IMG/VR virus record: IMGVR_UViG_3300048916_000093
Span: 1-48,990 of that record
Direction: 5' to 3' (one strand)
Origin: a virus
Length of the DNA: 48,990 nucleotides
Of the stretch, positions 18,947-48,990 are shown in pieces. The notes below the pieces were generated by a model. It saw nothing but the letters and a program-made list of their open reading frames with translations, was not told the origin of the DNA and did not search any database. Numbering within the stretch: position 1 is the first letter of the stretch; every line of letters begins with the position of its first letter. A program made the position numbers and the translations under genes.

Positions 18947-19019
18947 GGTTTCCCCGGCACGGTTCGAACGTGCGTTGGCGAATTCAAAGTCCGCAGTCCT
19001 ACCACTAGACGACGGGGAA
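18946..19019 (-). tRNA. tRNA-Gln (anticodon UUG), 74 nt with encoded CCA
   Basis: Hand-folded: acceptor UUCCCCG/CGGGGAA, D arm GUCU-AGUGGUA-GGAC, anticodon arm GCGGA-CUUUGAA-UUCGC, variable loop CAAC, T arm GCACG-UUCGAAC-CGUGC, discriminator A, then CCA. The terminal A is the A of the polymerase ATG. Confidence 0.85.
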
Positions 19020-32703: not shown

Positions 32704-32910
32704 ATGAAAGCGGGCATTATCCTTGACGATTGGAAATTGCCGGTTTTTCGCAAGCGATTGACGGCGGCCGGGTACACCTACACCGACGCGGGCGGCCTCG
32801 CCCACGATACGACGGTTTTGACGGTCGAAACGGACAACGTCTTGGGGCTCAAATCGGTACTTGAGGCGTGCCAAACCGAGTGCGCGCGTACCGGTCGTCC
32901 CCGCTCGTAA
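32704..32910 (+). CDS. Hypothetical protein (68 aa)
   Basis: AGGAG lies 8 nt upstream of ATG 32704. Confidence 0.6.
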   Translation: MKAGIILDDWKLPVFRKRLTAAGYTYTDAGGLAHDTTVLTVETDNVLGLKSVLEACQTECARTGRPRS

Positions 32911-34538
32911 TGCTTCCCGTCTTCGATTGGAAACACCCTGATTACGGGCCGATCTTCGCCCATCGCCTGGGCGTCTATCGCGATATTAAGGATGACGTCG
33001 TTGCGCGTCTCCAGCTCAAGGCGTGGTACAAAGACCACCCGGCGGATTTCATCAACGATTGGGGCGTCACCTTCGACCCGCGGCTAGCGGCCAAGGGCGT
33101 TCCGACCGTGGTCCCCTTCATCCTGTTCGACAAGCAGCGCGAGTGGGTCGATTGGTTCCTAGAGCGCTGGGCCATGAACGAACCGGGCTTGACGGAGAAG
33201 AGTCGCGACATGGGCGTCTCGTGGCTGGCGGTCGCGACGTGTTCCACGCTGGCGAATTTCCGCGAGGGCCTCACCTTCGGGTTCGGGTCGCGTAAGGAAG
33301 AATATGTCGACAAGATCGGCTCGCCTAAGTGCCTGTTCTGGAAGGCGCGCCAATTCATGACCTATCTCCCCGCGGAATTTACCGGGGGATGGGATGCCAA
33401 GCGAGATAGCGCGCACATGCGCCTCTCCTTCCCCCTCACGGGCAGCACGATCACTGGCGAGGCCGGCGACAACATCGGGCGTGGCGATCGTGCGTCCGCG
33501 TACCTCGTCGACGAGGAAGCCTATCTTGAGCGCCCCCAGCTCGTCGAAGCCGCGCTCTCGCAAACCACGGACTGCCGGATTGGGATTTCGAGCGCGAACG
33601 GCATGGGCAACCCTTTCGCGGAGAAGCGCCACTCCGGGCGAATTCCCGTCTTCACCTTCCATTGGCGGAGCGACCCGCGCAAAGATGACGCGTGGTACGC
33701 CAAGCAATGCGAGTTGCTGGACCCTGTCACCGTCGCCCAAGAGATCGACATAAATTACAGCGCCAGCGTTGAGGGCCTCGTCATGCCCAGCGATTGGCTC
33801 CAGGCGTGCGTCGACGCCCATATCAAGCTGGGCTTCGAACCGACGGGCGCAAAAAAGATCGGATTCGACGTAGCCGACGAAGGGCGTGACAAGAACGCCG
33901 ACGCTGGTACGCATGGCGTCGTCCTCATGCATCTGGAGGAATGGAGCGGCAAGGGCATGGATATCGCCGGCTCGACGCAAAAGGCCATGGGCCACGCGGA
34001 CGATTTCGGTTGCGACGATCTCCACTACGACGCGGACGGCCTGGGCGCGGACGTCAAGGGCGCGGCGCGGCTACTCAACGACAAGCGCACCGAAGAAAAT
34101 CGTCCCACCATATCGGTCACGGCTTTCCGGGGGAGCAACAAGGTTTTCGCCCCAAAGAGCGAGGACGTGCCCGGCCGTCTCAATGAGGATTTCTTCGCCA
34201 ATCGTAAGGCGCAATCGTGGTGGGACCTACGTCGCCGCGCCTACAAGACGTGGCGAGCCGTAATCTTCGGCGACCCCTACCCTCACGACGAGCTTATGAG
34301 CTTCGATAGCGCCTCGCTCAACGCGCCCAGGCCCAGCGCGCCCTACGGCATCATGGGGCGAATGATGGTGGAGCTGGCTCAACCGACCTACAAAAAGAAT
34401 GAAGCGGGCAAGCTGGTAATCAACAAAACGCCGGAGGGAATGAAGAGCCCCAACCTTGCCGACGCGGTCATGATAGTGTTTAGTCGCGCCTATCGCGCGC
34501 CGATGGCGGTTCGTGAGGAAGAGCTAGAGGAAATCTAG
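32910..34538 (+). CDS. terL: Terminase large subunit
   Basis: 542 aa with a TAATG overlap. The motifs include DKQREWVDWFLERW, SRDMGVSWLAVA and ASAYLVDEEAYL (Walker B-like), followed by a nuclease-like C half. Confidence 0.85.
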   Translation: MLPVFDWKHPDYGPIFAHRLGVYRDIKDDVVARLQLKAWYKDHPADFINDWGVTFDPRLAAKGVPTVVPFILFDKQREWVDWFLERWAMNEPGLTEKSRDMGVSWLAVATCSTLANFREGLTFGFGSRKEEYVDKIGSPKCLFWKARQFMTYLPAEFTGGWDAKRDSAHMRLSFPLTGSTITGEAGDNIGRGDRASAYLVDEEAYLERPQLVEAALSQTTDCRIGISSANGMGNPFAEKRHSGRIPVFTFHWRSDPRKDDAWYAKQCELLDPVTVAQEIDINYSASVEGLVMPSDWLQACVDAHIKLGFEPTGAKKIGFDVADEGRDKNADAGTHGVVLMHLEEWSGKGMDIAGSTQKAMGHADDFGCDDLHYDADGLGADVKGAARLLNDKRTEENRPTISVTAFRGSNKVFAPKSEDVPGRLNEDFFANRKAQSWWDLRRRAYKTWRAVIFGDPYPHDELMSFDSASLNAPRPSAPYGIMGRMMVELAQPTYKKNEAGKLVINKTPEGMKSPNLADAVMIVFSRAYRAPMAVREEELEEI

Positions 34539-34540
34539 GC

Positions 34541-37114
34541 ATGACCTTTCGCGCGCTGCGGCACGCCGTAATTCGCGCCCTGGGGGGCACGACCGACATG
34601 GCCCCAGCCGTGATCGATTATCGCAAAGGACCTCCTGTCGAACCACGCCGCGTCGCCGGCCTGGGGATGACCGATCAGGATATCGCAGACGCAACGCCGC
34701 CCGAACCGTCGGTGTCGGCCTATGCCATGCCGAAATCTCCGCCGTGGCTCCCGTCATCGGCCGGCGGCATCGCCATGGATAGCGCGGGAATGCCCCCCGC
34801 CCTCACCGCGGCGTCGCTTTATGCCTGGGCGGGCAATGGTGCCTTTGGTGAGGGCCTGGGCTTTCTGGGCTATCCCTATCTGGCGGAGCTTACCCAACGT
34901 CCCGAATATCGTCGCGTCTCCGAGATCTGGGCGGCCGAAGCGGTGCGTAAGTGGATCGAATTTAAAGGCGAAGGCGACCGGATAAAGAAAATCCAAAAAT
35001 CCTTGGAGCGCCTCAAGGTTCGTGACGTCATTCGCCACGCGATCGAGCTGGACGGTTTCATGGGTCGCGCCCAGATTTTCCCGGATCTCGGCTACCATGA
35101 CAACGACGGAGAGTTGCGCGCGATATTCGTCCCGAAGGCCAAGGTGGGCGTCGGCAAGCTCAAGGGGTTCACGGTGATCGAGCCGTTCTGGAGCTACCCT
35201 GGCTCCTACCAATCGACGAACCCCCTCGCCTCCGATTTCTACAAGCCGCGCGAGTGGTACGTCATGGGCAAGATCGTCGACAGCTCGTGGCTGATCACGA
35301 TTGTTGGGCGACCGATGCCGGACCTTCTCAAGCCAGCCTACGCGTTCGGCGGCCTCGCCCAGAGCCAAATGGTCAAGCCCTACGTGGACAACTGGCTCCG
35401 CACCCGCCAGAGCGTTTCCGACCTGATCCACTCATTCTCGACCATGGTCCTCAAGACCAACATGGCGACAATTATTCAAGGTGCGTTGGGCGGCGCGAAG
35501 AAGCTGCTTGACCGTATCAGGCTCTTCAACCGCGGGCGAGACAATCGCGGCCTCATGGCGATCGACAAGGATACGGAGGAACTCGAGAATGTCTCGACCC
35601 CCCTGGGCACGCTCGACAAGCTCCAGGCCCAAGCCCAAGAGCAAATCGCCAGCGTCGCCGGCATTCCGCTTGTCGTTCTCCTGGGCGTCACGCCGTCGGG
35701 CCTCAACGCGTCGAGCGATGGCGAGATCCGCACGTTCTATGCGACGATTGACGGCTATCTCTCGCGGGTAATCAAGCATCCGCTCCAGTACATTATCGAT
35801 TTGGTCCAGCTCGATCTTGACGGAACGATCGACCCCGACCTCACTTGGGATTTCATCCCCCTTTGGGAGACGCCCGAAGCGGAGAAGGCCAATATCCGCA
35901 AGGCCGACGCGGAAACCGATATCGCCTATTGCGCTGCCGGCGTGATCAGTAACGAAAATGTCCGAACGCGCATCACCACCGATCCGGAGAGCATCTATTA
36001 CGGGATGACTCTGGAAGAAGGCGAACCGCCGGCCGATCCGACCTTGGAAGACGATCTCGACGAGGAAGACGATCAGGAGGACGCGGACGGCGGCGGAGAG
36101 CCGGGAAAACCTAAAGGGGGCGTCACGCTCCCCAAGCTCCCTGCCCAGGATGCCCAGCCGGGCGAATTCGACGAAGGAAAGCATCCGCGCGCGCCGGACG
36201 GCAAATTCGGTTCGGGCGCTGGAGGTGGTGGCGCGCCCGCGGAGAAACCCAAGGGTGCCGTCGCGCCGGCTGTTCAATCGATCCTGGGCGACGAGGGCGT
36301 AACGCGGCTCCGCGAGCTGATCGCGGACAAGCAGAGCAAGGCGGCCGACATTATGGCCGTTCTTAAACCGCTCGACGAGGTGGGGCACAATATGACCCCT
36401 ACCCTCCCTCACGACACGACCCCGACCGATTCGTTTTGGCAAGGGCGCACCTACAGCGTCGACGGCAAGCCCGCGACGATTCAGGAGGTAGGCGAACACC
36501 TCGCGGCTACGGCCGAGCATTACGCGGGGCCTGGGGGCGTCAAGCAGCAACGCCGCGCGCGTATCCTCCTGGGGCCGCCGGCCGCCGGCAAGTCAACCAG
36601 CGCGGAAGAGATCGCGCGTCAAGGCGGCTATGCGATCGTGGACGGCGACGACGCCAAGAAGGTCATTCCAGAATTCGAGGGTGGCGTGGGCGCGAGCGCG
36701 GTTCACGAGGAAAGCTCGTATATGGCGGAAGCGGTGTTGGCGGACCAACTCAAGACCGGCAACAACGTCATTCTCCCGCTCGTGGGCGGCAAGCCGGGCT
36801 CGATCGAAAAGCGAATCAAGGTGTTGCGGGACGCCGGCTATGACGTCACCGTGGATCTCGTCGATGTTAACGAGGATGAAGCCGCGCGACGGATGGCTGG
36901 GCGCGCCATGAGGACCGGCCGCCATATCTCGTCGAGCTATTTCGCCTCGATTGGAAACGGCCCGCTCAACACCTATAATTATCTCAAGGATAAGAACCCG
37001 GATCTTGGGTTCGGAAGGATCAACGGCAATGGCGGACACAAAGAGGAACGATACGAGGAAGCCAGCAACCACCCCGACGCTACCCCCGGAAAGTCCCTAT
37101 TCGGAGGAAGCTAA
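34541..37114 (+). CDS. Portal protein (DUF1073-like) fused to a C-terminal Zeta-toxin-like P-loop kinase domain
   Basis: 857 aa. The portal body occupies about aa 1-490. An acidic/Gly linker contains KHPRAPDGKFG. The kinase-like domain has GPPAAGKST, IVDGDD and VILPLVGG. Confidence 0.85.
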   Translation: MTFRALRHAVIRALGGTTDMAPAVIDYRKGPPVEPRRVAGLGMTDQDIADATPPEPSVSAYAMPKSPPWLPSSAGGIAMDSAGMPPALTAASLYAWAGNGAFGEGLGFLGYPYLAELTQRPEYRRVSEIWAAEAVRKWIEFKGEGDRIKKIQKSLERLKVRDVIRHAIELDGFMGRAQIFPDLGYHDNDGELRAIFVPKAKVGVGKLKGFTVIEPFWSYPGSYQSTNPLASDFYKPREWYVMGKIVDSSWLITIVGRPMPDLLKPAYAFGGLAQSQMVKPYVDNWLRTRQSVSDLIHSFSTMVLKTNMATIIQGALGGAKKLLDRIRLFNRGRDNRGLMAIDKDTEELENVSTPLGTLDKLQAQAQEQIASVAGIPLVVLLGVTPSGLNASSDGEIRTFYATIDGYLSRVIKHPLQYIIDLVQLDLDGTIDPDLTWDFIPLWETPEAEKANIRKADAETDIAYCAAGVISNENVRTRITTDPESIYYGMTLEEGEPPADPTLEDDLDEEDDQEDADGGGEPGKPKGGVTLPKLPAQDAQPGEFDEGKHPRAPDGKFGSGAGGGGAPAEKPKGAVAPAVQSILGDEGVTRLRELIADKQSKAADIMAVLKPLDEVGHNMTPTLPHDTTPTDSFWQGRTYSVDGKPATIQEVGEHLAATAEHYAGPGGVKQQRRARILLGPPAAGKSTSAEEIARQGGYAIVDGDDAKKVIPEFEGGVGASAVHEESSYMAEAVLADQLKTGNNVILPLVGGKPGSIEKRIKVLRDAGYDVTVDLVDVNEDEAARRMAGRAMRTGRHISSSYFASIGNGPLNTYNYLKDKNPDLGFGRINGNGGHKEERYEEASNHPDATPGKSLFGGS

Positions 37115-37269
37115 CGAGCGACAGGTGGAATATTTGGAGGGACTTGTTTCGGGCGCGGTGCCCTCTCCCTTTTCCGGAGAAGCGGGTAAAAAGGGCTGAT
37201 AATTTCGCCGTCGAGTATTTTGCGGAGGTACTCGACACGCCGCGCCTCGTTTTCTTCATCCTGGGGCAT
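37111..37269 (-). CDS. Possible 52-aa ORF downstream of the RHH gene (doubtful)
   Basis: MPQDEENEARRVEYLRKILDGEII... It overlaps the RHH gene by 14 nt and has AAAGGAA upstream. The C-terminus is low-complexity, and its stop overlaps the portal stop. Confidence 0.3.
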   Translation of the reverse strand: MPQDEENEARRVEYLRKILDGEIISPFYPLLRKRERAPRPKQVPPNIPPVAR

Positions 37270-37411
37270 TGCCCAGTTTCCTTTCGATAGCGTCGACAAT
37301 CCACGTATTGCGATCGGGCAAGAGGCCGGCGGCCGTCATGCGCTCCAGTGTCGCCACCGGAATACGCACGAGGACCGCGGCGCGTTCGCCTTTCTTGGCA
37401 GGGTTCGGCAT
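37256..37411 (-). CDS. Ribbon-helix-helix (CopG/Arc-like) DNA-binding protein, 51 aa (below the ORF-track cutoff)
   Basis: Hand-translated: MPNPAKKGERAAVLVRIPVATLERMTAAGLLPDRNTWIVDAIERKLGNAPG. It shows the beta-strand then two-helix pattern of RHH proteins. The ATG is the 7th nt after a TAGATA -10. Confidence 0.6.
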   Translation of the reverse strand: MPNPAKKGERAAVLVRIPVATLERMTAAGLLPDRNTWIVDAIERKLGNAPG

Positions 37412-37412
37412 C

Positions 37413-37424
37413 CTTGATATCTAG
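37413..37424. promoter_or_regulatory. Operator site 1: CTTGATATCTAG
   Basis: It is identical to site 3 (39186-39197) and overlaps the -10 of the RHH promoter and the stop codon of the DUF3560-like gene. Confidence 0.6.
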
Positions 37425-37446
37425 CCTCGCGCCGCGAGGAAGGCAA
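37418..37446 (-). promoter_or_regulatory. Promoter candidate (minus): TTGCCT-N17-TAGATA
   Basis: Read on the minus strand. It would yield a leaderless RHH mRNA. Confidence 0.45.
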
Positions 37447-38083
37447 GGACCGCCTGGGCCGCCCGCTTCCCGTTCGGGGTTAACTGGCGTTGCCATGCGC
37501 CCAAGCTCGGAGCCCAGCGGAAGGCGTGGCGCTTGAGCTGGGCGATAACGTCGGGGTCAGGCTTGCCGTCGAACACGAGCTGGACGCGCTCCAGTGCCTC
37601 ATTCTCGACGTACCGGCCGCCGTCGAAGCCCCTCCCCTCCACCACGGGAGCCGCGGCGATCACCGCGCGTCGTTCGGCAAGGCGAAGCTGTTTCTCCGCC
37701 CAGGCTCGCGCTCCATTGGCGAAGTCGAGATATTCGCCCAGGCGGGCGTACTCGACGTCCATCCGCTTCCGGTTGCGATCGGCCGGGAAATTTGCCGGAC
37801 CCGTAATCATGGGGTTCGCGGTGCGCGCGCCGGCCGCCTGATACTTCGCCCACTTGGCGACGAACCGCGGGAACCACCGCATGACGAGCAAGGGAGCCTG
37901 GGGGCCGGCGGCGTGTTTGATCGCAGCGATACCGTTGAGGGCGGCGTCGACCGCGTCGTCTAAGGCCCGCTCGGCGCGCTTTCCCGGATCGAAGGTCCGC
38001 CAATTGAAGCTGGAGACGAAGGCTTCCGCGCCGCCCATCCGGGCGACGAGGCAAGCGAGGATCGGGGTGTATGGGTGTGCCAT
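37421..38083 (-). CDS. DUF3560-like protein
   Basis: 220 aa with AGGAGG 8 nt upstream. The C-terminus ERVQLVFDGKPDPDVIAQLKRHAFRWAPSLGAWQRQLT matches my recollection of the DUF3560 signature. Confidence 0.65.
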   Translation of the reverse strand: MAHPYTPILACLVARMGGAEAFVSSFNWRTFDPGKRAERALDDAVDAALNGIAAIKHAAGPQAPLLVMRWFPRFVAKWAKYQAAGARTANPMITGPANFPADRNRKRMDVEYARLGEYLDFANGARAWAEKQLRLAERRAVIAAAPVVEGRGFDGGRYVENEALERVQLVFDGKPDPDVIAQLKRHAFRWAPSLGAWQRQLTPNGKRAAQAVLAFLAARG

Positions 38084-38085
38084 GA

Positions 38086-38397
38086 TTAAGCCTCCTGGGG
38101 TTCGACGACGCGGACGTAAGGACGGCCGCCCATGGTGCTGATCACGATCAGCGCTGCGGTACGGACGTCGATCCCTTCCGCGATGTTGAGCGCCTCCGCG
38201 TGACGGTCCATTTCGTCGTAGGTGTCCGCGTGCGCCCAGTGTTCGGGGATGGGGATATATCCGGGCTCATTGGCGACCGCCACGCCCAACCGCGCCGCGT
38301 AACGCTCGCCATTGACGTTGACGAAACACCACACCTTGCCGGCGACTGCCGCGTCTAGGCCGCATTCGAAACGACCCTCAATGGTGAATTCCTTCAT
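38086..38397 (-). CDS. Hypothetical protein (103 aa)
   Basis: MKEFTIEGRFECGLDAAVAGKVWCF... It has an ATGA overlap with the upstream 45-aa ORF. Confidence 0.6.
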   Translation of the reverse strand: MKEFTIEGRFECGLDAAVAGKVWCFVNVNGERYAARLGVAVANEPGYIPIPEHWAHADTYDEMDRHAEALNIAEGIDVRTAALIVISTMGGRPYVRVVEPQEA

Positions 38398-38531
38398 TTG
38401 CCGTGTCCTTTCAAAAGAGCGTGGATCATACGTGCTTCGCGTCCGCCGACATGTGCCTTGCGGCGGGCCTGGGCGATGGCGGCTTCGACGGCCTCCGCGT
38501 TGTAGCGGGGAGCTTGGGGTTCTTTTTGCAT
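38394..38531 (-). CDS. Hypothetical 45-aa protein (below the ORF-track cutoff)
   Basis: Hand-translated: MQKEPQAPRYNAEAVEAAIAQARRKAHVGGREARMIHALLKGHGK. GAAAGGAA lies upstream. Confidence 0.45.
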   Translation of the reverse strand: MQKEPQAPRYNAEAVEAAIAQARRKAHVGGREARMIHALLKGHGK

Positions 38532-38550
38532 CAACCGTTCCTTTCGATCT

Positions 38551-38564
38551 ACTTGATATCAAGT
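38551..38564. promoter_or_regulatory. Operator site 2: perfect 14-bp palindrome ACTTGATATCAAGT
   Basis: It overlaps the -10 (TATCAA) of the minus promoter TTGACG-N17-TATCAA (38553-38581). Confidence 0.6.
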
Positions 38565-38776
38565 TATGGCTTTGCCGTCAAGCTCTTTTTCACCTGATTT
38601 CGCCAAAAATCTCGCTCGCCGCGGAGCATCTGGCCAACCGGGTTTTTCGCGTCGAACATGCGGGCGGTGCGAGTGAGATTGTCCAGGATCTCGGCCGCGC
38701 CTTCGAAACCGTGATCATTGAGCCACTCGCGCCCTTCGCGGATGCCGGCGAGGTATTCTTGCGTCACCTGGGCCAT
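38564..38776 (-). CDS. Hypothetical protein (70 aa)
   Basis: It is tightly packed with its neighbours. No family recognised. Confidence 0.6.
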   Translation of the reverse strand: MAQVTQEYLAGIREGREWLNDHGFEGAAEILDNLTRTARMFDAKNPVGQMLRGERDFWRNQVKKSLTAKP

Positions 38777-38777
38777 G

Positions 38778-38981
38778 TCAGAGATACCCGTAGAAGCGGA
38801 TACCGGCGAAAGAGCCGATCAGGTCGAGTCCTTCCAGCAAGAGTCGCCCGGTCGCGGGAACCCAATAATCCGCTGGCTGTCCGTTCCAACCGACGGTGGG
38901 CATTTCGGCCGCTTCCGCCGCGACGATATTGGTGCATTCATAGTCACGGCCAGCGTAATTGCGGTTGCGGAAGATCGGCAT
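38778..38981 (-). CDS. Hypothetical protein (67 aa)
   Basis: It has 1-nt spacers to its neighbours. Confidence 0.6.
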   Translation of the reverse strand: MPIFRNRNYAGRDYECTNIVAAEAAEMPTVGWNGQPADYWVPATGRLLLEGLDLIGSFAGIRFYGYL

Positions 38982-38982
38982 A

Positions 38983-39177
38983 TTATTTCCCCTTCGGAAG
39001 GTGACGGGCGATTTCCTCGTCGGTCATGCTGTCGAGCGCGATCAGGCAGGAACCGCCGGCCCGGAGGACCATCACGGTGCGAACCCCGTCGATCTTGCCC
39101 TTGTAGTCGCGGTGCATGGCGCGATAGATTTGATCGAGCTGCTTCTCGCGTTCCGTCTTCATGGCGGTAGTCTCCAT
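38983..39177 (-). CDS. Hypothetical protein (64 aa; more likely 59 aa from ATG 39162)
   Basis: GGAG lies 9 nt before the second ATG (MKTEREKQLDQIY...). Confidence 0.6.
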   Translation of the reverse strand: METTAMKTEREKQLDQIYRAMHRDYKGKIDGVRTVMVLRAGGSCLIALDSMTDEEIARHLPKGK

Positions 39178-39185
39178 CGGTGATG

Positions 39186-39197
39186 CTTGATATCTAG
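39186..39197. promoter_or_regulatory. Operator site 3: CTTGATATCTAG
   Basis: It overlaps the -10 (TAGATA on the minus strand) of the island's first promoter. Confidence 0.6.
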
Positions 39198-39203
39198 TGT
39201 AAG

Positions 39204-39215
39204 CTTGATATCAAG
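39204..39215. promoter_or_regulatory. Operator site 4: perfect palindrome CTTGATATCAAG
   Basis: It overlaps the -35/spacer of the minus promoter TTGACT-N17-TAGATA (39191-39219). Its centre is 18 bp from the centre of site 3. Confidence 0.6.
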
Positions 39216-39306
39216 TCAAGAGGGAAAATGCGCCGACGAGAAAATTCCTTGAGGCCCTGCGGCCAAACCGGTACGCTGGGGCTTCCTGGGGTGAGGGTAT
39301 TTTGAA

Positions 39307-39696
39307 ATGACGCTCGTAACCGCAAATCTCATCGTCGTGAAAGACCCGGAAACCGGGATAGTTCGGGAGGCGATGCCTGTAACGAACCCCGACGGCAGTC
39401 TTGTAGGCGGCGGTGGGGGCGGCGGAGGCGGCGCGGGACCAACCGTTACCGATTACAGCGCCGTCTTAACCGGGGCTAGCGACACGATCGTTACGGCGGG
39501 ACAAGCCGCTCATTACCTCGCTATTCAGAACCCAACCGGCAATGCCGACGTCACAGTCAATATCGCGGGCGGCGACGCCACCACCGGCGGAATCGTGCTG
39601 GTAGCGGGCGGTTCGCTCACCATAGACTTCGGGGTGGCCAATGCGGTCACGATCGCAGGCACGGCCGCTCAATCTGTTATCGTGTTCGCCGGCTAA
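39307..39696 (+). CDS. Hypothetical virion-module protein with a Gly9 run
   Basis: 129 aa. It contains SLVGGGGGGGGGAGP and ends in VIVFAG. Confidence 0.6.
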   Translation: MTLVTANLIVVKDPETGIVREAMPVTNPDGSLVGGGGGGGGGAGPTVTDYSAVLTGASDTIVTAGQAAHYLAIQNPTGNADVTVNIAGGDATTGGIVLVAGGSLTIDFGVANAVTIAGTAAQSVIVFAG

Positions 39697-39708
39697 AGGA
39701 TTCAAAAT

Positions 39709-40353
39709 ATGGGCATCAATAACCCCACCATCCCATTCAATCCTATCCCCAACCCGGTCGCGGTAACTAGCGCGACGGTGCCGGTGGACTTGGACCCCAA
39801 CGTGCGTTTCTATAACGTCACGAGCGGCGGTACGGCCGGCGTCGAGGGCCTCAACATCAACGGCCCCGCGGTGGAAGATACGGGCGTCAACGCCGCTTAC
39901 GTCGGGCAACGGATGGTGGTTTATTTTCTCTCCCGTACCGACAATGCCGATCGTGTCCACATGTCGCACAACACGTTCGAATATTTCGCCGTTTACGCGA
40001 ACAGCAATAATGCGAATATTGGACCCCAGGCCGTCAATCCGATCGTATTGACCAATGAGGGTGATTTCGCGACATTCGTTTTTACCGGGTATTACTGGTA
40101 TTTCGACTATTTCAACTCGAATGTACCTTTCACCACGGTTGAAAACGACGTCAATTTGCAGGGCGATTTTGGCGGAAACGTCAACATCACCGGGGGCTAT
40201 ACGGGAAGCACCGCGGGCGGCGACGTCATCATTCAGGGCGGGTCCGGTACTAGCGTTGGGCTCGTCAAGATGCCCGCGCTTCCCACGGCCGACCCTCACG
40301 TATTGAACGCGCTTTATCTGTCGGCCGGGGCCTTGATGGTTTCCGCCGGGTAA
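39709..40353 (+). CDS. Hypothetical virion-module protein (fibre-like C-terminus)
   Basis: 214 aa with AAGGA upstream. The C-terminus is LPTADPHVLNALYLSAGALMVSAG. Confidence 0.65.
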   Translation: MGINNPTIPFNPIPNPVAVTSATVPVDLDPNVRFYNVTSGGTAGVEGLNINGPAVEDTGVNAAYVGQRMVVYFLSRTDNADRVHMSHNTFEYFAVYANSNNANIGPQAVNPIVLTNEGDFATFVFTGYYWYFDYFNSNVPFTTVENDVNLQGDFGGNVNITGGYTGSTAGGDVIIQGGSGTSVGLVKMPALPTADPHVLNALYLSAGALMVSAG

Positions 40354-40358
40354 AAACG

Positions 40359-41231
40359 ATGGCCGACGATAAGCCACGGTCGCAAATCGGCGGAGTGCGC
40401 GTCACCGCTCAAGGCAAGCGGCTATTCGAGCGTGTTCGTGCCGCGGGCAAGCCGGTCGATCTCAAGGCCGTCCGTCCGTCGGCCGCGATCAGGGCCGACT
40501 ATCAAGCGCGCCTGGACAAGCTCGTCGACGACATGAACGCCAGTATCGTCTATTGGATCTCTGCGCGGTATCGAGCGAACCCGCCGGCCGCCCTCGCCAT
40601 GGACGCAAGCCCCGCCGAAGAGTTGCGCCGCGCGGTGCGCCGGCTCTCGCGACGGTGGCAACGGCGATTCGCGGAGTTGGGGCCGAAGCTCGCCGCATAT
40701 TTCGCCCAGGACGTCGCCAATCGAGTCGACGCGGATTTGAAGAAGGCGCTCAAGGACGCAGGCTTCACGGTCGATTTCAAGCTCACGCGCGCCCAGAACG
40801 ATGCTCTAGCCGCGACCGTCAACGAAAATGTGGCGCTGATAAAAAGCATTGGCCAGCAACACTTTACGCAAGTTGAGGGCTACGTCATGCGCGCCGTCCA
40901 AGCGGGTTCTGACCTAGGCACGCTGGCGAAGGAGCTGGAGGCCGGCTACGGTATTACGAAGCGTCGCGCCCAGAATATCGCGCGCTCTCAAAACTTTATG
41001 GCCAACTCGACCATGGTCAAGGTTCGCCAGCGCGAATTGGGCATCACCAAGGCGAAATGGCTTCACAGCGCCGGGGGCAAAACGCCCAGGCCGGAACATG
41101 TGGCATTTTCGGGTAAACTCTACGACGTCGAAAAGGGCGCGTTCCTTGAGGGAAAATGGACTTGGCCCGGCCGCGAGCCCAATTGTCGGTGCGTTTCGAT
41201 CAGCGTAATTCCGGGGCTTGAGGACCGTTAA
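40359..41231 (+). CDS. Head morphogenesis protein, MuF / SPP1 gp7-like
   Basis: WLHSAGGKTPRPEHVAFSGKLYD...WPGREPNCRCVS is the MuF family signature. Confidence 0.8.
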   Translation: MADDKPRSQIGGVRVTAQGKRLFERVRAAGKPVDLKAVRPSAAIRADYQARLDKLVDDMNASIVYWISARYRANPPAALAMDASPAEELRRAVRRLSRRWQRRFAELGPKLAAYFAQDVANRVDADLKKALKDAGFTVDFKLTRAQNDALAATVNENVALIKSIGQQHFTQVEGYVMRAVQAGSDLGTLAKELEAGYGITKRRAQNIARSQNFMANSTMVKVRQRELGITKAKWLHSAGGKTPRPEHVAFSGKLYDVEKGAFLEGKWTWPGREPNCRCVSISVIPGLEDR

Positions 41232-41687: not shown

Positions 41688-42341
41688 ATGACCGACAGCA
41701 CGCTTGTTGACCTCGTCAAGGTCTTTATCAACACCCAAGGGACCGGCACGCTCGCTCTGGGGTCCGCCCTCCCCTCCTTTCGTGGCGTTGAGGCCCTCGT
41801 CGACGGGCTGATCTACGATTACTCGATCCAACAAGGCGCAAATTTCGAGTACGGAACGGGCACCTTTACAGCCGGCGACGGCACCCTCACGCGCGGCGTC
41901 CAGGCGTCCAGCTATGGCGGCGCGCCCATCCCCCTCGTCGCCAATGCCGTTTGCACCTTTACCGCGCTCGCGTCTTCCTTGCTACGTCCCGGCCCACAAG
42001 GGAATATCGGCCCGCGCGGCATCGGCGTCCCAACCCCCGTGACCATCATCACCGGCGATTACACGTTGCTCGCGACGGACGTCGAAACCTACCTCCTATT
42101 TCAGAACACCGGGGGTCCGGCCGTTCTTACCGTGCCGTCAATCTTTGACGTCGCCCTCCCGCTCGATAGCGTCATTTTCTTCGAACAGAATAGTGCGAAC
42201 GATGTTACGCTTGCGCCGGCGGATGGCGTCACGCTTAATAGTCGCGGCGGCTTTCTTAAGACCGGCGGTCAATTTGCAGTTGGACAAATCAAACAGGTCC
42301 AGGAGGATATTTGGACCGTCATCGGGGACATGACGACATGA
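41688..42341 (+). CDS. Hypothetical head-module protein with a short collagen-like GXY stretch
   Basis: 217 aa, containing GPQGNIGPRGIG. Confidence 0.6.
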   Translation: MTDSTLVDLVKVFINTQGTGTLALGSALPSFRGVEALVDGLIYDYSIQQGANFEYGTGTFTAGDGTLTRGVQASSYGGAPIPLVANAVCTFTALASSLLRPGPQGNIGPRGIGVPTPVTIITGDYTLLATDVETYLLFQNTGGPAVLTVPSIFDVALPLDSVIFFEQNSANDVTLAPADGVTLNSRGGFLKTGGQFAVGQIKQVQEDIWTVIGDMTT

Positions 42342-43753
42342 TCATTCGCGGCATGGCGATGGATCGCCGCCCCACCCCAAATTATGAGGCCAAGCCGGGC
42401 CTCGCGTTCGATCGTGCATCTGTCCGGACCTATGACAAGGACGGTCGTCTCCACGTATCGGTCACGCATATCAGCAAGGCCACGGTTGACCTTTATTACG
42501 GTCGCGAGATCCCCGGATTTGAAGAGTTGGGGCTGATCGCGGAAAAAGCGTATTATCTCCTTCGCGACCCGGAAGAAATCGCTAAGGCGGCTTCGACCTT
42601 CAACAATCTCCCCATCCTTAATCGGCATATTCCCGTCAATGCGGAAGCGCCACAACAGGAATATGTTGTTGGTTCGACGGGCACCGACGCGGAATTTTCC
42701 GCGCCATATCTCGACAATAGCGCCGTCGTTTGGGTCAAGGACTCAATCGAGCTGATTGAGAGCGACGAACAAAAGGAATGGTCGTGCGGGTATTACTATA
42801 CGCCCGACATGACGCCCGGCAATTTTAACGGGTTGCGTTACGATGGCGTTATGCGAAATATGATCGGCAATCACGTTGCATTGGTGAAGGACGGACGTGC
42901 CGGACCCGATGTTGTCGTTGGCGATGAAAAACCGGAGCAAGTGGGCACCATGGCAAAGATCAATTCCCGTCGGGCGCTGATGTTGAGTGGCGCAATCGCC
43001 GCGCATATCGCGCCGAAGCTCGCGATGGACGCTAAGGGCGTCGACCTCTCCGGTGCGCTCAAGGGCGTCACCGCGAAGACGCTGGGCAAGTCGGTCAATG
43101 CGGTCGCGGGTCGGGTCATGGATTCGCTCAAGGGCGTGAAGCTCGCCCAGGACGAATCGGTCGACGTGGCCGACGTCGTCGCGATCATCAAGGCGGTCGA
43201 CGGTGCGGATCTGGGCAGCGAGCCCGACGAGATCGCGTCCGACGATGACGACGAAATGATGAACGAACCGCCCGCCGTCGACGATGACGGCGACGCCATG
43301 TCGAAGATCATGGCTTTCCTCAAGGGCAAGCTGTCCGACGAAGACATGGAAACGATCGCCGGCATGTGCGGCGGTGGCACCACGACGGCCGACGATGACG
43401 CGCCCCCTCCCCCTCCCGGCGGCAAGGCCCCCGACGACAAGGACAAGCCCGCCATGGACGCCAAGGGTGTCGCACGTATCGTCAACGAAATGCGCGAAGC
43501 GGAGCGGCTCGTTGAGCCCCATATCGGCCGCGTCACGACCGCCCAGGAGAGCCCGGAGGCCATTTACAAGATGGCCCTGGACGCCAAGGGCGTCGACACA
43601 AAGGGTGTTCCCCCCACGGCGTTCAAGGCCATGGTCGGGATGCTGGGGCAAAAGGTTGCGGCTCCGGGCGGCGGCCTCGCGCTCGATCACAAGGCGGGAG
43701 CGAGCGATTTCGACAGTCGCTTCCCCAACGCCCATCCCATCCTCGCGTCGTAA
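42338..43753 (+). CDS. Scaffolding / prohead protease-like protein (DUF2213-like)
   Basis: ATGA overlap. It shows EWSCGYYYTPDMTPGNFNGLRYDGVMRNMIGNHVALVKDGRAGPD, then an acidic, helix-rich scaffold-like C half. Confidence 0.7.
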   Translation: MIIRGMAMDRRPTPNYEAKPGLAFDRASVRTYDKDGRLHVSVTHISKATVDLYYGREIPGFEELGLIAEKAYYLLRDPEEIAKAASTFNNLPILNRHIPVNAEAPQQEYVVGSTGTDAEFSAPYLDNSAVVWVKDSIELIESDEQKEWSCGYYYTPDMTPGNFNGLRYDGVMRNMIGNHVALVKDGRAGPDVVVGDEKPEQVGTMAKINSRRALMLSGAIAAHIAPKLAMDAKGVDLSGALKGVTAKTLGKSVNAVAGRVMDSLKGVKLAQDESVDVADVVAIIKAVDGADLGSEPDEIASDDDDEMMNEPPAVDDDGDAMSKIMAFLKGKLSDEDMETIAGMCGGGTTTADDDAPPPPPGGKAPDDKDKPAMDAKGVARIVNEMREAERLVEPHIGRVTTAQESPEAIYKMALDAKGVDTKGVPPTAFKAMVGMLGQKVAAPGGGLALDHKAGASDFDSRFPNAHPILAS

Positions 43754-48015: not shown

Positions 48016-48990
48016 ATGACTAGCATCCCAGCCGATCGGCTCGTCAAGGTCACGCCTACGGTCGTTCCGACCGGCGGGACCGGGCTTGACGTCCAGGGCC
48101 TTTTTCTCACGCAAAGCAACCGCGTGCCGATCGGCCAAGTCCAGGCATTCCAGAGCGACGATGACGTTGCCGCCTTCTTCGGCGCGTCGTCCCTGGAGGC
48201 GTCCGTTGCGGTTCGTTATTTCAAGGGCTACGACAGCTCCCCAATCAAACCGGCCAACCTCCTGTTTGCGCAATATCCGCCGACGGACGTTGCCGCATAT
48301 CTTCGCGGCGGCTCGCTCAAAGCGATGACGCTGGCCCAGCTCAAGGCCATCGCCGGCACCGTTGCCCTCACGATCAATGGGGTTTTGGTCACGTCGGGCG
48401 CGATCAACTTGACCGGCGCGACGAGCTTTTCAAGCGCGGCGACGATCATCGCGGCAGCATTCAATCATAACGACGCGAATTTTACCGCGAGCCAATCCGG
48501 CAACGTTCTCACCGTCACCGCGGTTGCGAGTGGCGCACTCGCGGTCGGTCAGGTTGTCGCGGGGGCGGGTGTTACCGCGGGGACCAAGATCACCGCTCTG
48601 GGCACCGGCACCGGTGGGACCGGAACCTATACGGTCGACAGCTCCGCCACGATCGCCAGTGAGGCCATGACGGCCGGTGCGTTGACGGTGGCATTCGACA
48701 GCGTATCGAGTGCCTTTGTCCTCACCGACGGGACGCCGGGTGCCGACAGCACGATCACCACGGCCGACGTATCCAGCGCCGCAACCGCGCTCAAGCTCAC
48801 CACAGCGACGGGCGCGACGACGTCACAAGGTGCGGTTGCGGCGACGCCCGCGAGCGCCATGGATAGCGTCACCGCCGCGACGCAGGATTTCGTTACTTTC
48901 TCGACGATCTTCCAGCCCAGCGACGACGACATGATTGCCTTTGCCGCATGGTGCAGCGATCAGTCGGCGCGTTTCCCCTATATCCAGTGG
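48016..48990 (+). CDS. Tail sheath-like / major tail protein (DUF3383-like), 5' part; continues at nt 128..853 after removing the duplicated 127 nt
   Basis: ATG 48016 follows GGGGAG. The frame is open to the window end (MTSIPADRLVKVTPTVVPTGGTGLDVQGLFLTQSNRVPIGQ...). The joined product is 566 aa. The N-terminal pattern and the position upstream of tube, chaperone and tape measure fit a sheath/major tail protein. Confidence 0.8.
   Translation, partial: MTSIPADRLVKVTPTVVPTGGTGLDVQGLFLTQSNRVPIGQVQAFQSDDDVAAFFGASSLEASVAVRYFKGYDSSPIKPANLLFAQYPPTDVAAYLRGGSLKAMTLAQLKAIAGTVALTINGVLVTSGAINLTGATSFSSAATIIAAAFNHNDANFTASQSGNVLTVTAVASGALAVGQVVAGAGVTAGTKITALGTGTGGTGTYTVDSSATIASEAMTAGALTVAFDSVSSAFVLTDGTPGADSTITTADVSSAATALKLTTATGATTSQGAVAATPASAMDSVTAATQDFVTFSTIFQPSDDDMIAFAAWCSDQSARFPYIQW
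48864..48990. repeat. Terminal exact duplication, copy 2
   Basis: Identical to nt 1-127. Confidence 0.95.

What the first reader, a model, noticed from the sequence alone, without database searches (positions are those of the whole stretch)
36011..37114. Portal protein carries a C-terminal Zeta-toxin-like P-loop kinase domain
The 857-aa ORF has three parts:
- A normal-length portal body of about 490 aa (GFLGYPYLAELTQRPEYRRVSEIWAAE..., LQAQAQEQIASVAGIPLVVLLGVTPSGLNASSDGEIRTFY).
- An acidic/Gly-rich linker (LEDDLDEEDDQEDADGGGEPGKPKG ... FDEGKHPRAPDGKFGSGAGGGGAPAEKPKG).
- A domain of about 190 aa with Walker A GPPAAGKST, then GYAIVDGDDAKK, NVILPLVGG and AGYDVTVDLVDVNEDEAARRMAGRAMRTGRHIS.

This motif order is what I know from Zeta/PezT-family kinases. 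Those enzymes phosphorylate UDP-GlcNAc, and relatives such as AvrRxo1 phosphorylate NAD. The HPR..GKF motif is, to my knowledge, common at domain junctions of virion-packaged polyvalent and MuF-toxin proteins.

A kinase tethered to the dodecameric portal would sit in up to 12 copies at the DNA exit channel. It could be an injected effector acting on cell-wall precursors, nucleotide cofactors or defence signals. Alternatively it could be a cargo released by prohead processing. No epsilon-like antitoxin gene is adjacent.
Basis: partly seen in the sequence, partly recalled or inferred. Interest (0 to 1): 0.8.

Follow-up and report, generated by a model that had tools for sequence, protein, structure and literature searches.

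The report
Phage portal fused to Zeta-like kinase
A complete ~49-kb phage genome encodes a portal protein whose C-terminus carries an intact Zeta-toxin-superfamily kinase, one example of a widespread but untested habit of this portal family of carrying swappable enzyme "cargo" that is probably packed inside the capsid.

Summary
ORF 34541-37114 (857 aa) consists of a Phage_portal_3 body, a disordered acidic/Gly-rich linker and a 282-aa kinase module. Pfam, a profile search and Foldseek all place the kinase nearest ζ/PezT/AvrRxo1.

It is not an assembly artefact. The identical protein occurs on 7 contigs, and 36 database clusters share the portal+Zeta architecture.

The catalytic residues are kept (Walker A Lys, the ζ-Asp67 equivalent, two lid Arg). 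The UDP-GlcNAc-contacting residues of ζ are not, so the substrate is probably something else. A "VHEESS" motif is shared only with the NAD kinase AvrRxo1.

The kind is known. Iyer et al. 2017 described Zeta-like kinases fused to MuF and other effectors fused to portals. The cryo-EM portals E217/Pa193 gp19 carry an unresolved C-terminal pyrophosphatase-like domain behind a barrel that points into the head.

New here:
- A junction motif, QDAxFxExxHPRxxxG(K/Q)FGSGGG, is present in 47/69 extended portals and 0/49 plain ones.
- Four lineages have the fusion split by frame breaks inside the linker, yet the kinase stays under purifying selection.

Packaging, cleavage, injection and substrate are all inferred.

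The parts
34541..37114 (+). Portal-kinase fusion ORF, 857 aa plus stop
   Evidence: ORF list. Identical protein P0035 on 7 contigs.
34868..36010 (+). Portal body, aa ~110-490 (Phage_portal_3). Aa 1-109 upstream are low-confidence.
   Evidence: Pfam E 7.9e-73. phrog_146. Homologous to cryo-EM portals E217 gp19 and Pa193 gp19, E ~5e-34. AF2 gives confident pLDDT over this range.
36011..36139 (+). Acidic, Gly/Pro-rich disordered linker, aa 491-533 (LEDDLDEEDDQEDADGGGEPGKPKG...)
   Evidence: pLDDT <50 for aa 495-542. Composition.
36140..36232 (+). Cargo-junction motif PAQDAQPGEFDEGKHPRAPDGKFGSGAGGGG, aa 534-564
   Evidence: Present once, at the end of the portal body, in 47/69 extended portal homologues, 2/2 split-lineage portals and 0/49 plain portals; Fisher p = 3e-16. 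Also precedes LPD3 cargo in a Helicobacter prophage portal.
36233..36265 (+). Short second linker, aa 565-575. All frame breaks seen in relatives map between the junction motif and the first residues of the kinase module (about aa 578).
   Evidence: Low pLDDT for aa 557-569.
36266..37111 (+). Zeta-superfamily kinase module, aa 576-857: N-terminal helical sub-domain plus P-loop kinase core
   Evidence: AF2 of aa 591-857 gives pLDDT 95.2, pTM 0.91; the module start at about aa 576 comes from the full-length model. Foldseek top hits are 3q8x/1gvn ζ, 2p5t PezT and 4z8q AvrRxo1. Profile hits: ζ 6e-12, PezT 9e-9, AvrRxo1 1.4e-7.
36572..36598 (+). Walker A GPPAAGKST. K684 corresponds to ζ K46.
   Evidence: Nearly invariant in the family.
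36638..36661 (+). VDGDDAKK. D703 corresponds to the catalytic base ζ D67 / PezT D66 / AvrRxo1 D193.
   Evidence: Alignment. Roles of these residues from PMC3062530, PMC5087710 and PMC5923241.
36701..36718 (+). VHEESS motif, with an invariant H.ES core in the family. It aligns with VHSESS of AvrRxo1 and is absent from ζ and PezT.
   Evidence: Present in 103 of the 150 best representatives.
36764..36790 (+). NVILPLVGG, which replaces the ζ/PezT 'IEGTGR' UNAG-binding segment (E116->P746, T118->V748, R120->G750)
   Evidence: Alignment. UNAG contacts from PMC3062530.
36881..36931 (+). Arg-rich lid AARRMAGRAMRTGRHIS. R788 corresponds to ζ R158 and R794 to ζ R171.
   Evidence: alignment. R198 invariant and R204 nearly invariant in model numbering.
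37256..37411 (-). Conserved ~51-aa convergent ORF just downstream (MPNPAKKGERAAVLVRIP...DRNTWIVDAIERKL). It looks like a ribbon-helix-helix protein, judged from the sequence pattern only. Any link to the kinase is uncertain.
   Evidence: Homologues next to the kinase in L079, L001, L003, L006 and L008. Not found in the fetched parts of the kinase-less relatives L086 and L087.
42311..43753 (+). Head maturation protease (DUF2213), the candidate enzyme for releasing the cargo
   Evidence: phrog_2229, E 2.7e-120. PF09979.
40359..41231 (+). MuF head-morphogenesis protein, 290 aa, with no effector domain of its own
   Evidence: Pfam PF04233. phrog_324.
32868..34538 (+). Large terminase subunit gene directly upstream (packaging-module context)
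   Evidence: Gene order TerS-TerL-portal is shared with L001, L086 and L087.

Best explanation
This is a genuine, evolutionarily conserved fusion of a Phage_portal_3 portal to a catalytically competent Zeta-superfamily small-molecule kinase. It is one case of a general modular system in which this portal family carries interchangeable C-terminal cargo domains behind a conserved junction motif.

The portal C-terminus faces the capsid interior, so up to 12 kinase modules per virion would be held inside the head on an ~85-residue disordered tether. This step is inferred from homology.

The most likely mechanism, also inferred, has three steps. The tether is cut at or near the junction motif, probably by the phage's head maturation protease. 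The freed ~30-kDa kinase leaves through the portal and tail with the DNA. Early in the next infection it phosphorylates a hydroxyl group on a nucleotide-type metabolite. The substrate is probably not UDP-GlcNAc, because the UNAG pocket is not conserved. An NAD-like or other nucleotide substrate, as for AvrRxo1, is the best guess. The effect would be to condition the host or blunt its defences.
For: Shown:
- The ORF and its domains.
- Reproducibility and recurrence: 7 contigs carry the identical protein, and 36 clusters share portal+Zeta. In-frame fusions were read in six further loci.
- Zeta-superfamily placement by Pfam, profile and fold, on a high-confidence model with pLDDT 95.2.
- The Walker A Lys, the ζ-D67, R158 and R171 equivalents are conserved.
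- Purifying selection on the kinase: dN/dS 0.13-0.25.
- The linker is disordered and no fixed inter-domain orientation is predicted (pTM 0.46).
- In the closest solved portals, E217 and Pa193 gp19, a C-terminal barrel projects into the head and residues 529-765 are invisible. That extension is an InPase domain, so 12 copies of cargo on this portal type are tolerated.
- Portals in this family carry Zeta, NUDIX, LPD3, InPase, PF18760, PF18812, PF18763 or unknown cargo. The nearest relatives of the window's portal (79-84% identity) have a different cargo or none.
- The junction motif is tightly linked to the presence of cargo.
- In L004 a stand-alone kinase has a short N-terminal helix, then the same motif, then the kinase. 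That is the arrangement expected of an anchor, a processing site and a cargo.
- A head maturation protease is encoded nearby.
- The same kinase family sits mostly in large virion-type proteins, including MuF fusions and LPD-bearing polyvalent proteins. Of the best 150 representatives, 112 are at least 700 aa.

Literature precedent: Iyer et al. 2017 and 2022 predicted that portal- and MuF-fused effectors are packaged and injected.
Against: - There is no experimental evidence anywhere that portal-tethered cargo is cleaved or ejected. In E217 and Pa193 the extension was simply not seen.
- The cleavage role of the motif is pure inference. No matching site was found elsewhere in the window.
- If the kinase stays covalently attached to the portal, it cannot reach the next host.
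- Four lineages have the kinase in a separate reading frame, so covalent attachment is not strictly required.
- The substrate is unknown. The resemblance to AvrRxo1 rests on a single shared motif, while overall similarity is higher to ζ/PezT.
- The N-terminal helical sub-domain (aa 576-660) could be a cis-inhibitor, as in EzeT. This was not tested.
Confidence: 0.5

Rival explanations
1. The kinase acts only in the producing cell, late in infection. It could work as free portal-kinase monomers or as a separately translated protein, for example by poisoning cell-wall or nucleotide metabolism to help lysis or to block abortive-infection responses. Under this view the fusion to the portal merely co-expresses it with the late genes, and any encapsidated copies are irrelevant.
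For: - Four lineages encode the kinase in a separate frame, still under purifying selection. L083 and L004 encode it as a separate gene after a different type of portal. Physical attachment is therefore dispensable.
- No antitoxin is needed if the protein is made only at the end of a lytic cycle, and none was detected.
Against: - The kinase family is overwhelmingly embedded in virion-associated carriers such as portal, MuF and LPD polyvalent proteins. That is hard to explain by co-expression alone.
- The conserved junction motif and tether argue for a physical delivery role.
- Even the separate kinase genes sit directly after the portal gene, and one carries the junction motif.
Confidence: 0.22
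2. It is a canonical ζ/PezT-type UDP-GlcNAc 3'-kinase that locally weakens peptidoglycan synthesis to help DNA entry or lysis. This is the role Iyer et al. 2017 suggested for MuF-Zeta fusions and is the first reader's leading idea.
For: - ζ and PezT are the best sequence and fold matches.
- The catalytic Asp and the ATP-site residues are conserved.
- The literature suggests this role.
Against: - The UNAG-contacting residues listed in PMC3062530 are replaced: T118->V748 (the equivalent T->V change makes PezT non-toxic), R120->G750, T128->R758, and E116->P746. The E100 position varies across the family.
- AvrRxo1 shows that Zeta-fold kinases lacking the UNAG motif use other substrates.
Confidence: 0.12
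3. It is a polynucleotide (RNA/DNA 5'-OH) kinase used for repair, for example of tRNAs cut by host anticodon nucleases, and is not a small-molecule kinase.
For: Weak hits to Pnkp1 (4xrp: E 0.0023 with the single sequence, 9.7e-6 with the profile) and to phrog_505 'polynucleotide kinase'. Clostridium PNK appears among the Foldseek hits.
Against: - ζ, PezT and AvrRxo1 outrank every PNK in all three searches.
- No phosphatase or ligase partner domain or gene was seen in the ORF or its neighbours.
Confidence: 0.08
4. The fusion in this window is an assembly or sequencing artefact, meaning a missed stop codon or frameshift between two adjacent genes.
For: Some relatives do have portal and kinase in separate frames, with the breaks at homopolymer tracts.
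Against: - The identical 857-aa protein is on 7 contigs.
- A further 35 diverged clusters, plus six loci read directly from DNA, have the same in-frame architecture.
- The window's linker DNA has no homopolymer longer than G5.
- The linker residues align in frame with relatives.
Confidence: 0.01

Closest known systems
Portal- and MuF-fused packaged effectors / 'polyvalent proteins' (Iyer, Burroughs, Anand, de Souza, Aravind 2017, PMC5512222; Iyer et al. 2022, PMC9503650)
   Same: An effector enzyme is fused to a head-packaging protein and encoded in the terminase-portal-MuF module. These papers explicitly report Zeta-toxin-like kinases fused to MuF, and PBECR, 2H and Nudix domains fused to portals. 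The kinase family found here also occurs in MuF fusions and in LPD38-bearing giant proteins.
   Different: The passages retrieved from those papers do not name the specific portal+Zeta pairing. They also do not mention the conserved HPR junction motif or the recurrent frame splits. Everything in those papers is computational prediction.
Pseudomonas Pbunavirus portals E217 gp19 and Pa193 gp19 (8fvh, 9b41; PMC10329688, PMC11456595)
   Same: The same portal family (E ~5e-34), with a C-terminal extension of about 240 aa beyond the portal fold. The barrel projects into the head and residues 529-765 are not visible by cryo-EM.
   Different: Their cargo is an InPase (PF18823) domain, not a kinase. 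No KHPR junction motif was noticed on reading the extension, though this was not formally scanned. The structural papers do not comment on the domain.
ζ toxin / PezT (epsilon-zeta type II toxin-antitoxin systems; 1gvn, 3q8x, 2p5t)
   Same: The best fold and profile matches. The P-loop Lys, the catalytic Asp and two lid Arg are conserved.
   Different: The UNAG-binding residues are not conserved. No epsilon/PezA antitoxin was detected. The domain is tethered to a virion protein rather than being a free toxin. It has an extra N-terminal helical sub-domain.
AvrRxo1 (Xanthomonas type III effector, NAD 3'-kinase; 4z8q and related entries)
   Same: A Zeta-fold kinase delivered into another cell that lacks the UNAG motif. 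It shares the VH(S/E)ESS motif following the catalytic Asp segment.
   Different: Overall similarity is lower than to ζ (1.4e-7 against 6e-12). The delivery machine differs (type III secretion versus phage capsid). AvrRxo1 has an adjacent antitoxin/chaperone, AvrRxo2.
MuF polymorphic toxins (Jamet et al. 2017, PMC5576092) and polymorphic toxin systems in general
   Same: A conserved carrier with a variable C-terminal effector, and close relatives that carry different cargo. A conserved boundary motif precedes the variable part.
   Different: The carrier is the portal itself, at 12 copies per virion, rather than MuF at 1-2 copies. No convincing immunity gene was found; only a small RHH-like ORF, in 6 of about 9 lineages.
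T4 Alt and internal proteins with a capsid-targeting sequence (recalled from general knowledge; Alt also cited in PMC5512222)
   Same: Enzymes packed in the head and injected with the DNA. The targeting peptide is removed by the prohead protease.
   Different: Those proteins are targeted through the scaffold core and are not covalently part of the portal. No sequence similarity.

Membership tests
Zeta_toxin superfamily (Pfam PF06414; ζ/PezT/AvrRxo1-type P-loop kinases) | Scores above the curated family threshold | tested here: met
   54.6 bits against a cutoff of 22.3, E 1.2e-14. The precomputed Pfam column lists PF06414 for all 34 relatives.
Zeta_toxin superfamily (Pfam PF06414; ζ/PezT/AvrRxo1-type P-loop kinases) | Fold closest to solved ζ/PezT/AvrRxo1 rather than to generic NMP or polynucleotide kinases | tested here: met
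   Foldseek ranks 1-9 are 3q8x, 1gvn, 2p5t and 4z8q (E 6e-8 to 1e-5, TM ~0.5-0.6). Adenylate kinases come next. The profile search gives the same order.
Zeta_toxin superfamily (Pfam PF06414; ζ/PezT/AvrRxo1-type P-loop kinases) | Walker A Lys, a catalytic Asp after strand 2 (ζ D67 / PezT D66 / AvrRxo1 D193), and lid arginines (ζ R158, R171) | tested here: met
   K684, D703, R788 and R794 align with these residues and are invariant or nearly invariant across 35 relatives.
Canonical ζ/PezT UDP-GlcNAc kinase toxins (epsilon/zeta TA systems) | UNAG-contacting residues ζ T118, R120, T128 and E100 (PMC3062530), and E116 in the 'EGTGR' segment | tested here: not met
   T118->V748, R120->G750, T128->R758, E116->P746. 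The E100 position is Glu in the window but is not conserved in the family.
Canonical ζ/PezT UDP-GlcNAc kinase toxins (epsilon/zeta TA systems) | An adjacent epsilon/PezA-type antitoxin gene | tested here: not met
   No Pfam hit for any of the 7 neighbouring small ORFs. The only conserved neighbour is a convergent ~51-aa RHH-like ORF of unknown role.
AvrRxo1-type NAD 3'-kinases | Phosphorylation of the adenosine 3'-OH of NAD/NAAD. No sequence signature for the NAD site is defined in the papers read. | not testable with these tools
   The only indications are the shared VH(S/E)ESS motif and the shared lack of the UNAG motif. An enzyme assay is needed.
Phage_portal_3 (PF06381 / DUF1073 / TIGR01555) portal proteins | Family profile match and homology to structurally proven portals | tested here: met
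   Pfam E 7.9e-73. E217 gp19 at 4.1e-34 and Pa193 gp19 at 5.8e-34. Positioned between TerL and MuF. TIGR01555 scores only 80.7 bits, below its equivalog cutoff of 196.
Virion-packaged, injected effector fusions ('polyvalent'/MuF-portal effectors, Iyer 2017) | An effector domain fused to a head or packaging protein within the late structural module | tested here: met
Virion-packaged, injected effector fusions ('polyvalent'/MuF-portal effectors, Iyer 2017) | Physical presence in the virion and transfer into the host cell | not testable with these tools
   Only inferred, from the inward-facing C-terminus of the E217 and Pa193 portals.
Polymorphic-toxin-like modular systems | A conserved carrier, a conserved boundary motif, and a C-terminal domain that varies between close relatives | tested here: met
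   Portals 79-84% identical to the window's carry no cargo or a different one. The motif is in 47/69 extended portals and 0/49 plain ones.
Polymorphic-toxin-like modular systems | A cognate immunity gene immediately downstream | tested here: inconclusive
   A 1-3 kb island of small, mostly minus-strand ORFs accompanies the kinase and is absent from kinase-less relatives. Only one ORF family is shared, in 6 of about 9 lineages.
Programmed recoding (frameshift / transcriptional slippage) producing two products | A slippery site, conservation of the shifted frame, and a stimulatory element or long A/T run | tested here: inconclusive
   Candidate sites: the A9 tract in L081 and C_CCC_CCA two codons before the portal stop in L003. 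The downstream frame is under purifying selection. However, L080 is a plain 1-nt insertion, L001 needs a +1 shift at a G6 run, and downstream RNA structure is not significant, with z from -2.1 to +0.75.

The most novel reading that the evidence does not exclude
Phage_portal_3 portals would form a portal-borne polymorphic effector delivery system. In this reading the junction motif QDAxFxExxHPRxxxG(K/Q)FGSGGG, which the one literature search run here did not find described, is the processing site at which the head maturation protease, or autoproteolysis, releases up to 12 cargo molecules inside the capsid. The Zeta-like cargo would be a non-UNAG kinase, injected ahead of or with the DNA, that phosphorylates NAD or nucleotide immune messengers and so disarms NAD-dependent or cyclic-nucleotide defences. 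For example, phosphorylating the adenosine 3'-OH, as AvrRxo1 does, would block formation of 3'-linked cADPR-type signals. In some lineages, homopolymer tracts in the linker (A9, C7, G6) would set the fraction of portal subunits that carry cargo, through slippage.
Probability: 0.15. Interest if true: 0.8.

Novelty: new member of a known kind. Interest (0 to 1): 0.45.

Why it matters
Injected phage effectors are a current focus of phage-defence research, but portal-tethered cargo has never been examined experimentally. Even in the cryo-EM model phages E217 and Pa193, the ~240-residue enzyme domain on the portal is invisible and not discussed.

This window offers three things:
- a compact, complete genome in which the cargo is a well-folded kinase with clear catalytic residues;
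- a conserved junction motif that can be mutated to test processing;
- natural comparators, namely close relatives with no cargo, with other cargo, or with the cargo split off.

If the kinase is injected and its substrate is identified, a new enzymatic activity would be added to the anti-defence or host-takeover repertoire, and the motif could be used to load foreign proteins into capsids. If not, it remains one more predicted packaged effector.

Tried and rejected
- **Nucleotide search of isolate phages (megablast):** no close relative found.
- **Single-sequence search of PDB sequences:** only weak Pnkp1 and adenylate kinase hits. The profile and the fold search were needed.
- **'Assembly artefact':** I took this seriously when the closest kinase homologues turned out to be short stand-alone calls next to portal genes. 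I rejected it after the full-length survey and direct reading of the junctions.
- **'HPR motif is a general junction motif of polyvalent and MuF proteins':** rejected for this sample. It was absent from about 45 such carriers of the kinase. A literature search for the motif found nothing relevant.
- **Programmed ribosomal frameshifting at the split junctions:** no consistent downstream RNA structure, and L080 is a simple 1-nt insertion. I keep it only as a minority possibility, mainly for L081 (A9) and L003.
- **L079, the closest relative at 89%:** uninformative, because the first 220 nt of the contig do not match the window and look like a fold-back chimera.
- **The N-terminal ~830 aa of the dominant ~1,100-aa kinase carriers:** no Pfam or PDB match; only a partial hit to phrog_21 'portal protein' and to phrog_10691. 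Left unresolved.
- **NCBIfam:** added nothing beyond a sub-threshold TIGR01555 hit.
- **Not attempted:** checking whether the N-terminal helical sub-domain occludes the ATP site, as the cis-antitoxin of EzeT does. I did not try to extract model coordinates.

Full report
**1. Observation**

The window contains an 857-aa ORF at 34541-37114 on the + strand, directly after the large terminase gene. Pfam assigns aa 112-460 to Phage_portal_3 (E 7.9e-73). It assigns aa 673-807 to Zeta_toxin PF06414 (54.6 bits, curated cutoff 22.3), with AAA_33 second. PHROGs agree: phrog_146 'portal protein', and for the C-terminus families of very large phage proteins annotated as minor head proteins.

The window is a complete, circularly assembled genome of about 48.86 kb, shown by an exact 127-nt terminal repeat. 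Its module order is TerS, TerL, portal-kinase, an island of small ORFs, MuF, head maturation protease, cement protein and major capsid protein.

**2. Is the fusion real?**

The first search, with the C-terminal 297 aa, raised doubt. The closest homologues were short proteins of 250-300 aa. In L001/L002 and L003 they were called as separate genes right after a 558-567-aa portal gene, in a different reading frame.

Reading the DNA showed that in those loci the kinase frame stays open upstream of the called start. It encodes residues that align with the window's linker. A wider survey settled the matter:
- The identical 857-aa protein (P0035) is recorded on 7 contigs.
- Among the 120 best hits to the full-length protein, 36 clusters at 90% identity (806-997 aa, 31-61% identical) carry both PF06381 and PF06414.
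- In-frame fusions were also read directly in L005, L006, L008, L057, L030 and, partially, L082.

The fusion is therefore genuine and conserved.

**3. What the C-terminal module is**

AlphaFold2 on aa 591-857 with 35 homologues gave a very confident model (pLDDT 95.2, pTM 0.91). Foldseek against the PDB ranks ζ toxin (3q8x, 1gvn), PezT (2p5t) and AvrRxo1 (4z8q) first. Adenylate, shikimate and polynucleotide kinases follow. A family profile searched against PDB sequences gives the same order: ζ 6e-12, PezT 9e-9, AvrRxo1 1.4e-7, Pnkp1 1e-5.

In that alignment K684 matches ζ K46. D703 matches ζ D67, the catalytic base (PezT D66, AvrRxo1 D193). R788 and R794 match ζ R158 and R171. All are invariant or nearly invariant in the family.

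The residues that contact UDP-GlcNAc in ζ, listed in PMC3062530, are not kept. T118 becomes V748; the equivalent T-to-V change makes PezT non-toxic. R120 becomes G750, T128 becomes R758, and E116 of the 'EGTGR' segment becomes P746. The E100 position varies across the family.

The family instead has an invariant VHEESS-type motif. This aligns with VHSESS of AvrRxo1, a Zeta-fold kinase that also lacks the UNAG motif and phosphorylates the 3'-OH of NAD.

My conclusion is that this is an active Zeta-superfamily phosphotransferase whose substrate is probably not UNAG. An NAD-like or other nucleotide substrate is a lead, not a result.

**4. Anatomy of the whole protein**

A full-length AF2 model built with 54 homologues shows two confident modules, aa ~110-490 and ~576-857. 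Between them is a low-confidence segment, with pLDDT <50 over aa 495-542 and 557-569. pTM is 0.46, so no fixed relative orientation is predicted. The linker is rich in Gly, Pro, Glu and Asp.

**5. Where the cargo would sit**

The portal part is homologous (E ~5e-34) to the cryo-EM portals E217 gp19 and Pa193 gp19. Both are 765 aa and are modelled only to residue 528. They end in a helical barrel that projects into the head, and residues 529-765 gave no density.

I translated a Pbunavirus orthologue of gp19 and found that this invisible extension is an InPase domain (PF18823, E 3e-43). The structural papers do not mention it.

By homology, then, the window's kinase would be inside the capsid, on a flexible tether, in up to 12 copies. 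This portal type evidently tolerates such a load. This step is inference.

**6. A modular cargo system with a junction motif**

Within the 120 portal homologues, the C-terminal extension is Zeta (36 clusters), NUDIX (8), PF18760, PF18812, PF18763, a PF21338+PF01028 pair, unannotated (up to 1,311 aa), or absent.

The portals most similar to the window's have a different cargo or none: P0036 (84% identical, 732 aa), P0043 (79%, 778 aa) and P0057 (83%, 526 aa). In the P0057 and P0036 genomes the portal gene is followed directly by MuF.

The motif QDAxFxExxHPRxxxG(K/Q)FGSGGG occurs exactly once per protein, at the end of the portal body. It is in 47 of 69 homologues of at least 590 aa, in both split-lineage portals, and in 0 of 49 plain portals of 535 aa or less (Fisher p = 3e-16). 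It precedes cargo of several kinds, including LPD3 in a Helicobacter prophage portal.

It is not a general polyvalent-protein motif. It was absent from about 45 MuF-linked, ~1,100-aa or giant carriers of the same kinase. In L004, however, a stand-alone kinase protein has a ~35-aa N-terminal helix, then DADFRESDHPRAPDGRFG, then a linker and the kinase. That is the layout expected of an anchor, a processing site and a cargo.

A head maturation protease is encoded in the window (phrog_2229, E 2.7e-120). I infer, without direct evidence, that the motif marks the site of cargo release, the boundary for cassette exchange, or both.

**7. The kinase family at large**

A profile search of 1.84 billion representatives found 2,335 clusters at E <= 1e-30 and 7,295 at E <= 1e-10. 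Of the best 150, 112 are at least 700 aa and 100 are at least 1,000 aa.

Carriers sampled include MuF+Zeta (L059), MuF plus two Zeta domains (L009), NUDIX+Zeta (L069), an LPD38-bearing polyvalent protein of 2,327 aa (L075), and a dominant ~1,100-aa class whose N-terminus remains unassigned. The best BFVD structural matches are likewise viral proteins of 900-1,500 aa, and tblastn separately matches multidomain proteins of cyanophage PSS2 (minor head protein) and halovirus HCTV-5.

This matches Iyer et al. 2017, who reported Zeta-toxin-like kinases fused to MuF and PBECR or 2H domains fused to MuF or portal. Iyer et al. 2022 reported Nudix and 2H fusions to the portal. The kind is therefore known. 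Portal+Zeta is a further, abundant combination.

**8. Split lineages**

Four lineages have portal and kinase in different frames, with every break falling between the junction motif and the first residues of the kinase module:
- L001 (= L002 = L007, from three independent sources): a G6 run, where a +1 shift would be needed.
- L003: C_CCC_CCA two codons before the portal stop, where a -1 shift would be needed.
- L081: an A9 tract, on a contig seen in 8 samples.
- L080: a single inserted base relative to its 95%-identical in-frame relative L005.

The kinase ORF remains intact in all four. Its dN/dS of 0.13-0.20 is indistinguishable from the 0.13-0.25 seen between in-frame lineages. The split portals keep the junction motif that plain portals lack.

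Either the kinase is also functional when made separately, or part of the portal pool is extended by slippage. Three of the four have a plausible GTG or TTG start at the overlap, which fits separate translation. Downstream RNA structure is not significant (z from -2.1 to +0.75), so programmed ribosomal frameshifting is unsupported. Transcriptional slippage at the A9 tract remains plausible. I treat this as an open side-observation.

**9. Neighbourhood**

Kinase-bearing genomes all have a 1.1-3.2 kb island of small, mostly minus-strand ORFs between the kinase and MuF. The kinase-less relatives lack it. Pfam detects nothing in the window's island.

One ~51-aa convergent ORF (37256-37411) has homologues in 6 of about 9 lineages. 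Its sequence pattern looks like a ribbon-helix-helix protein, which I did not test. It could be a regulator or an immunity factor. The evidence is weak.

**10. Verdict**

Mechanistically, I commit to a packaged kinase that is probably released by proteolysis and injected, acting on a nucleotide-type metabolite (confidence about 0.5). Action in the producer cell is the main rival.

I rate novelty as 'new member of a known kind' and interest as moderate (0.45). The score is lifted somewhat by the junction motif, which the literature search did not find described, and by the natural split, swap and loss variants that make the system experimentally tractable.

Noticed in passing
window 36140-36232 (aa 534-564); same position in P0036-P0143, L085 3425-4399 and L004 ~3590-3650: A conserved junction motif, QDAxFxExxHPRxxxG(K/Q)FGSGGG, marks the boundary between the portal body and any C-terminal cargo. 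It is in 47/69 extended portals and 0/49 plain ones. It also occurs after a short N-terminal helix in a stand-alone kinase. The literature search found nothing on it.
   Followed up: partly
L001 7883-7895; L003 5930-5946; L081 100-115; L080 ~2040-2065: Four independent lineages have the portal-kinase fusion broken by a frame change inside the linker: a G6 run, C_CCC_CCA, an A9 tract, and a 1-nt insertion. The kinase ORF stays under purifying selection in all four (dN/dS 0.13-0.20). This could be gene fission with translational coupling, or slippage that yields sub-stoichiometric fusion protein.
   Followed up: partly
L084 1297-3591 (Pseudomonas phage vB_PaeM_PAO1_Ab27 ORF37, an orthologue of E217/Pa193 gp19): The 765-aa Pbunavirus portal carries a C-terminal InPase domain (PF18823, aa 635-753). 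This lies in the region reported as having no cryo-EM density in E217 and Pa193, and the Pa193 paper does not mention it.
   Followed up: yes
window 37111-40353 (compare L086 7581-7586 and L087 8199-8201): An island of about 3.2 kb lies between the kinase and MuF: six small minus-strand ORFs and two plus-strand ORFs. In the two closest kinase-less relatives the portal gene abuts MuF. All kinase-bearing relatives have a comparable island of 1.1-3.2 kb.
   Followed up: partly
window 37256-37411 (-): A conserved ~51-aa ORF (MPNPAKKGERAAVLVRIPVATLERM...DRNTWIVDAIERKL) with a ribbon-helix-helix-like sequence pattern, convergent on the kinase stop codon. Homologues are in L079, L001, L003, L006 and L008. 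It is a candidate regulator or immunity factor, untested.
   Followed up: partly
window 1-127 and 48864-48990: An exact 127-nt terminal direct repeat, which fits a circularly assembled complete genome of about 48,863 bp.
   Followed up: no
window 19273-19457: Imperfect tandem repeats with a period of about 66-81 nt and very rich in G and C (GGACCACCGGGGCCAG...). I did not work out the strand or the gene they lie in.
   Followed up: no
window 18946-19019 (-): A single tRNA-Gln (anticodon TTG) encoded in the phage genome.
   Followed up: no
phrog_30637 matches: window portal aa 242-560 and window protease (42311-43750) aa 26-462: A single 1,119-position PHROG profile covers both the C-terminal half of the portal and the head maturation protease. 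This implies that some phages encode portal-protease fusion proteins.
   Followed up: no
L083 3289-6497: A Mu-type portal (PF06074, 719 aa) is followed 2 nt later by a separate 348-aa kinase gene of the same family. That kinase has its own ~50-aa N-terminus and a degenerate junction-like motif (NPNQPRDPAGTETGGQW). The kinase therefore associates with unrelated portal families.
   Followed up: partly
L015, L026, L031, L065, L066 and others (ORFs of ~1,070-1,230 aa): The commonest carrier of this kinase is a ~1,100-aa protein with the kinase at the C-terminus. Its N-terminal ~830 aa has no Pfam or PDB match and only partial hits to phrog_21 ('portal protein', C-terminal part of the profile) and phrog_10691.
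   Followed up: partly
L079 1-220: The 5' end of this short MAG contig does not match the window and contains an inverted repeat (CACCGAAGACACCGA ... TCGGTGTCTTCGGTG). It is probably a fold-back assembly chimera, so its apparent stop codon upstream of the kinase is unreliable. L082 begins with adaptor-derived sequence (translating as VYKRQ / MCIRDR).
   Followed up: partly
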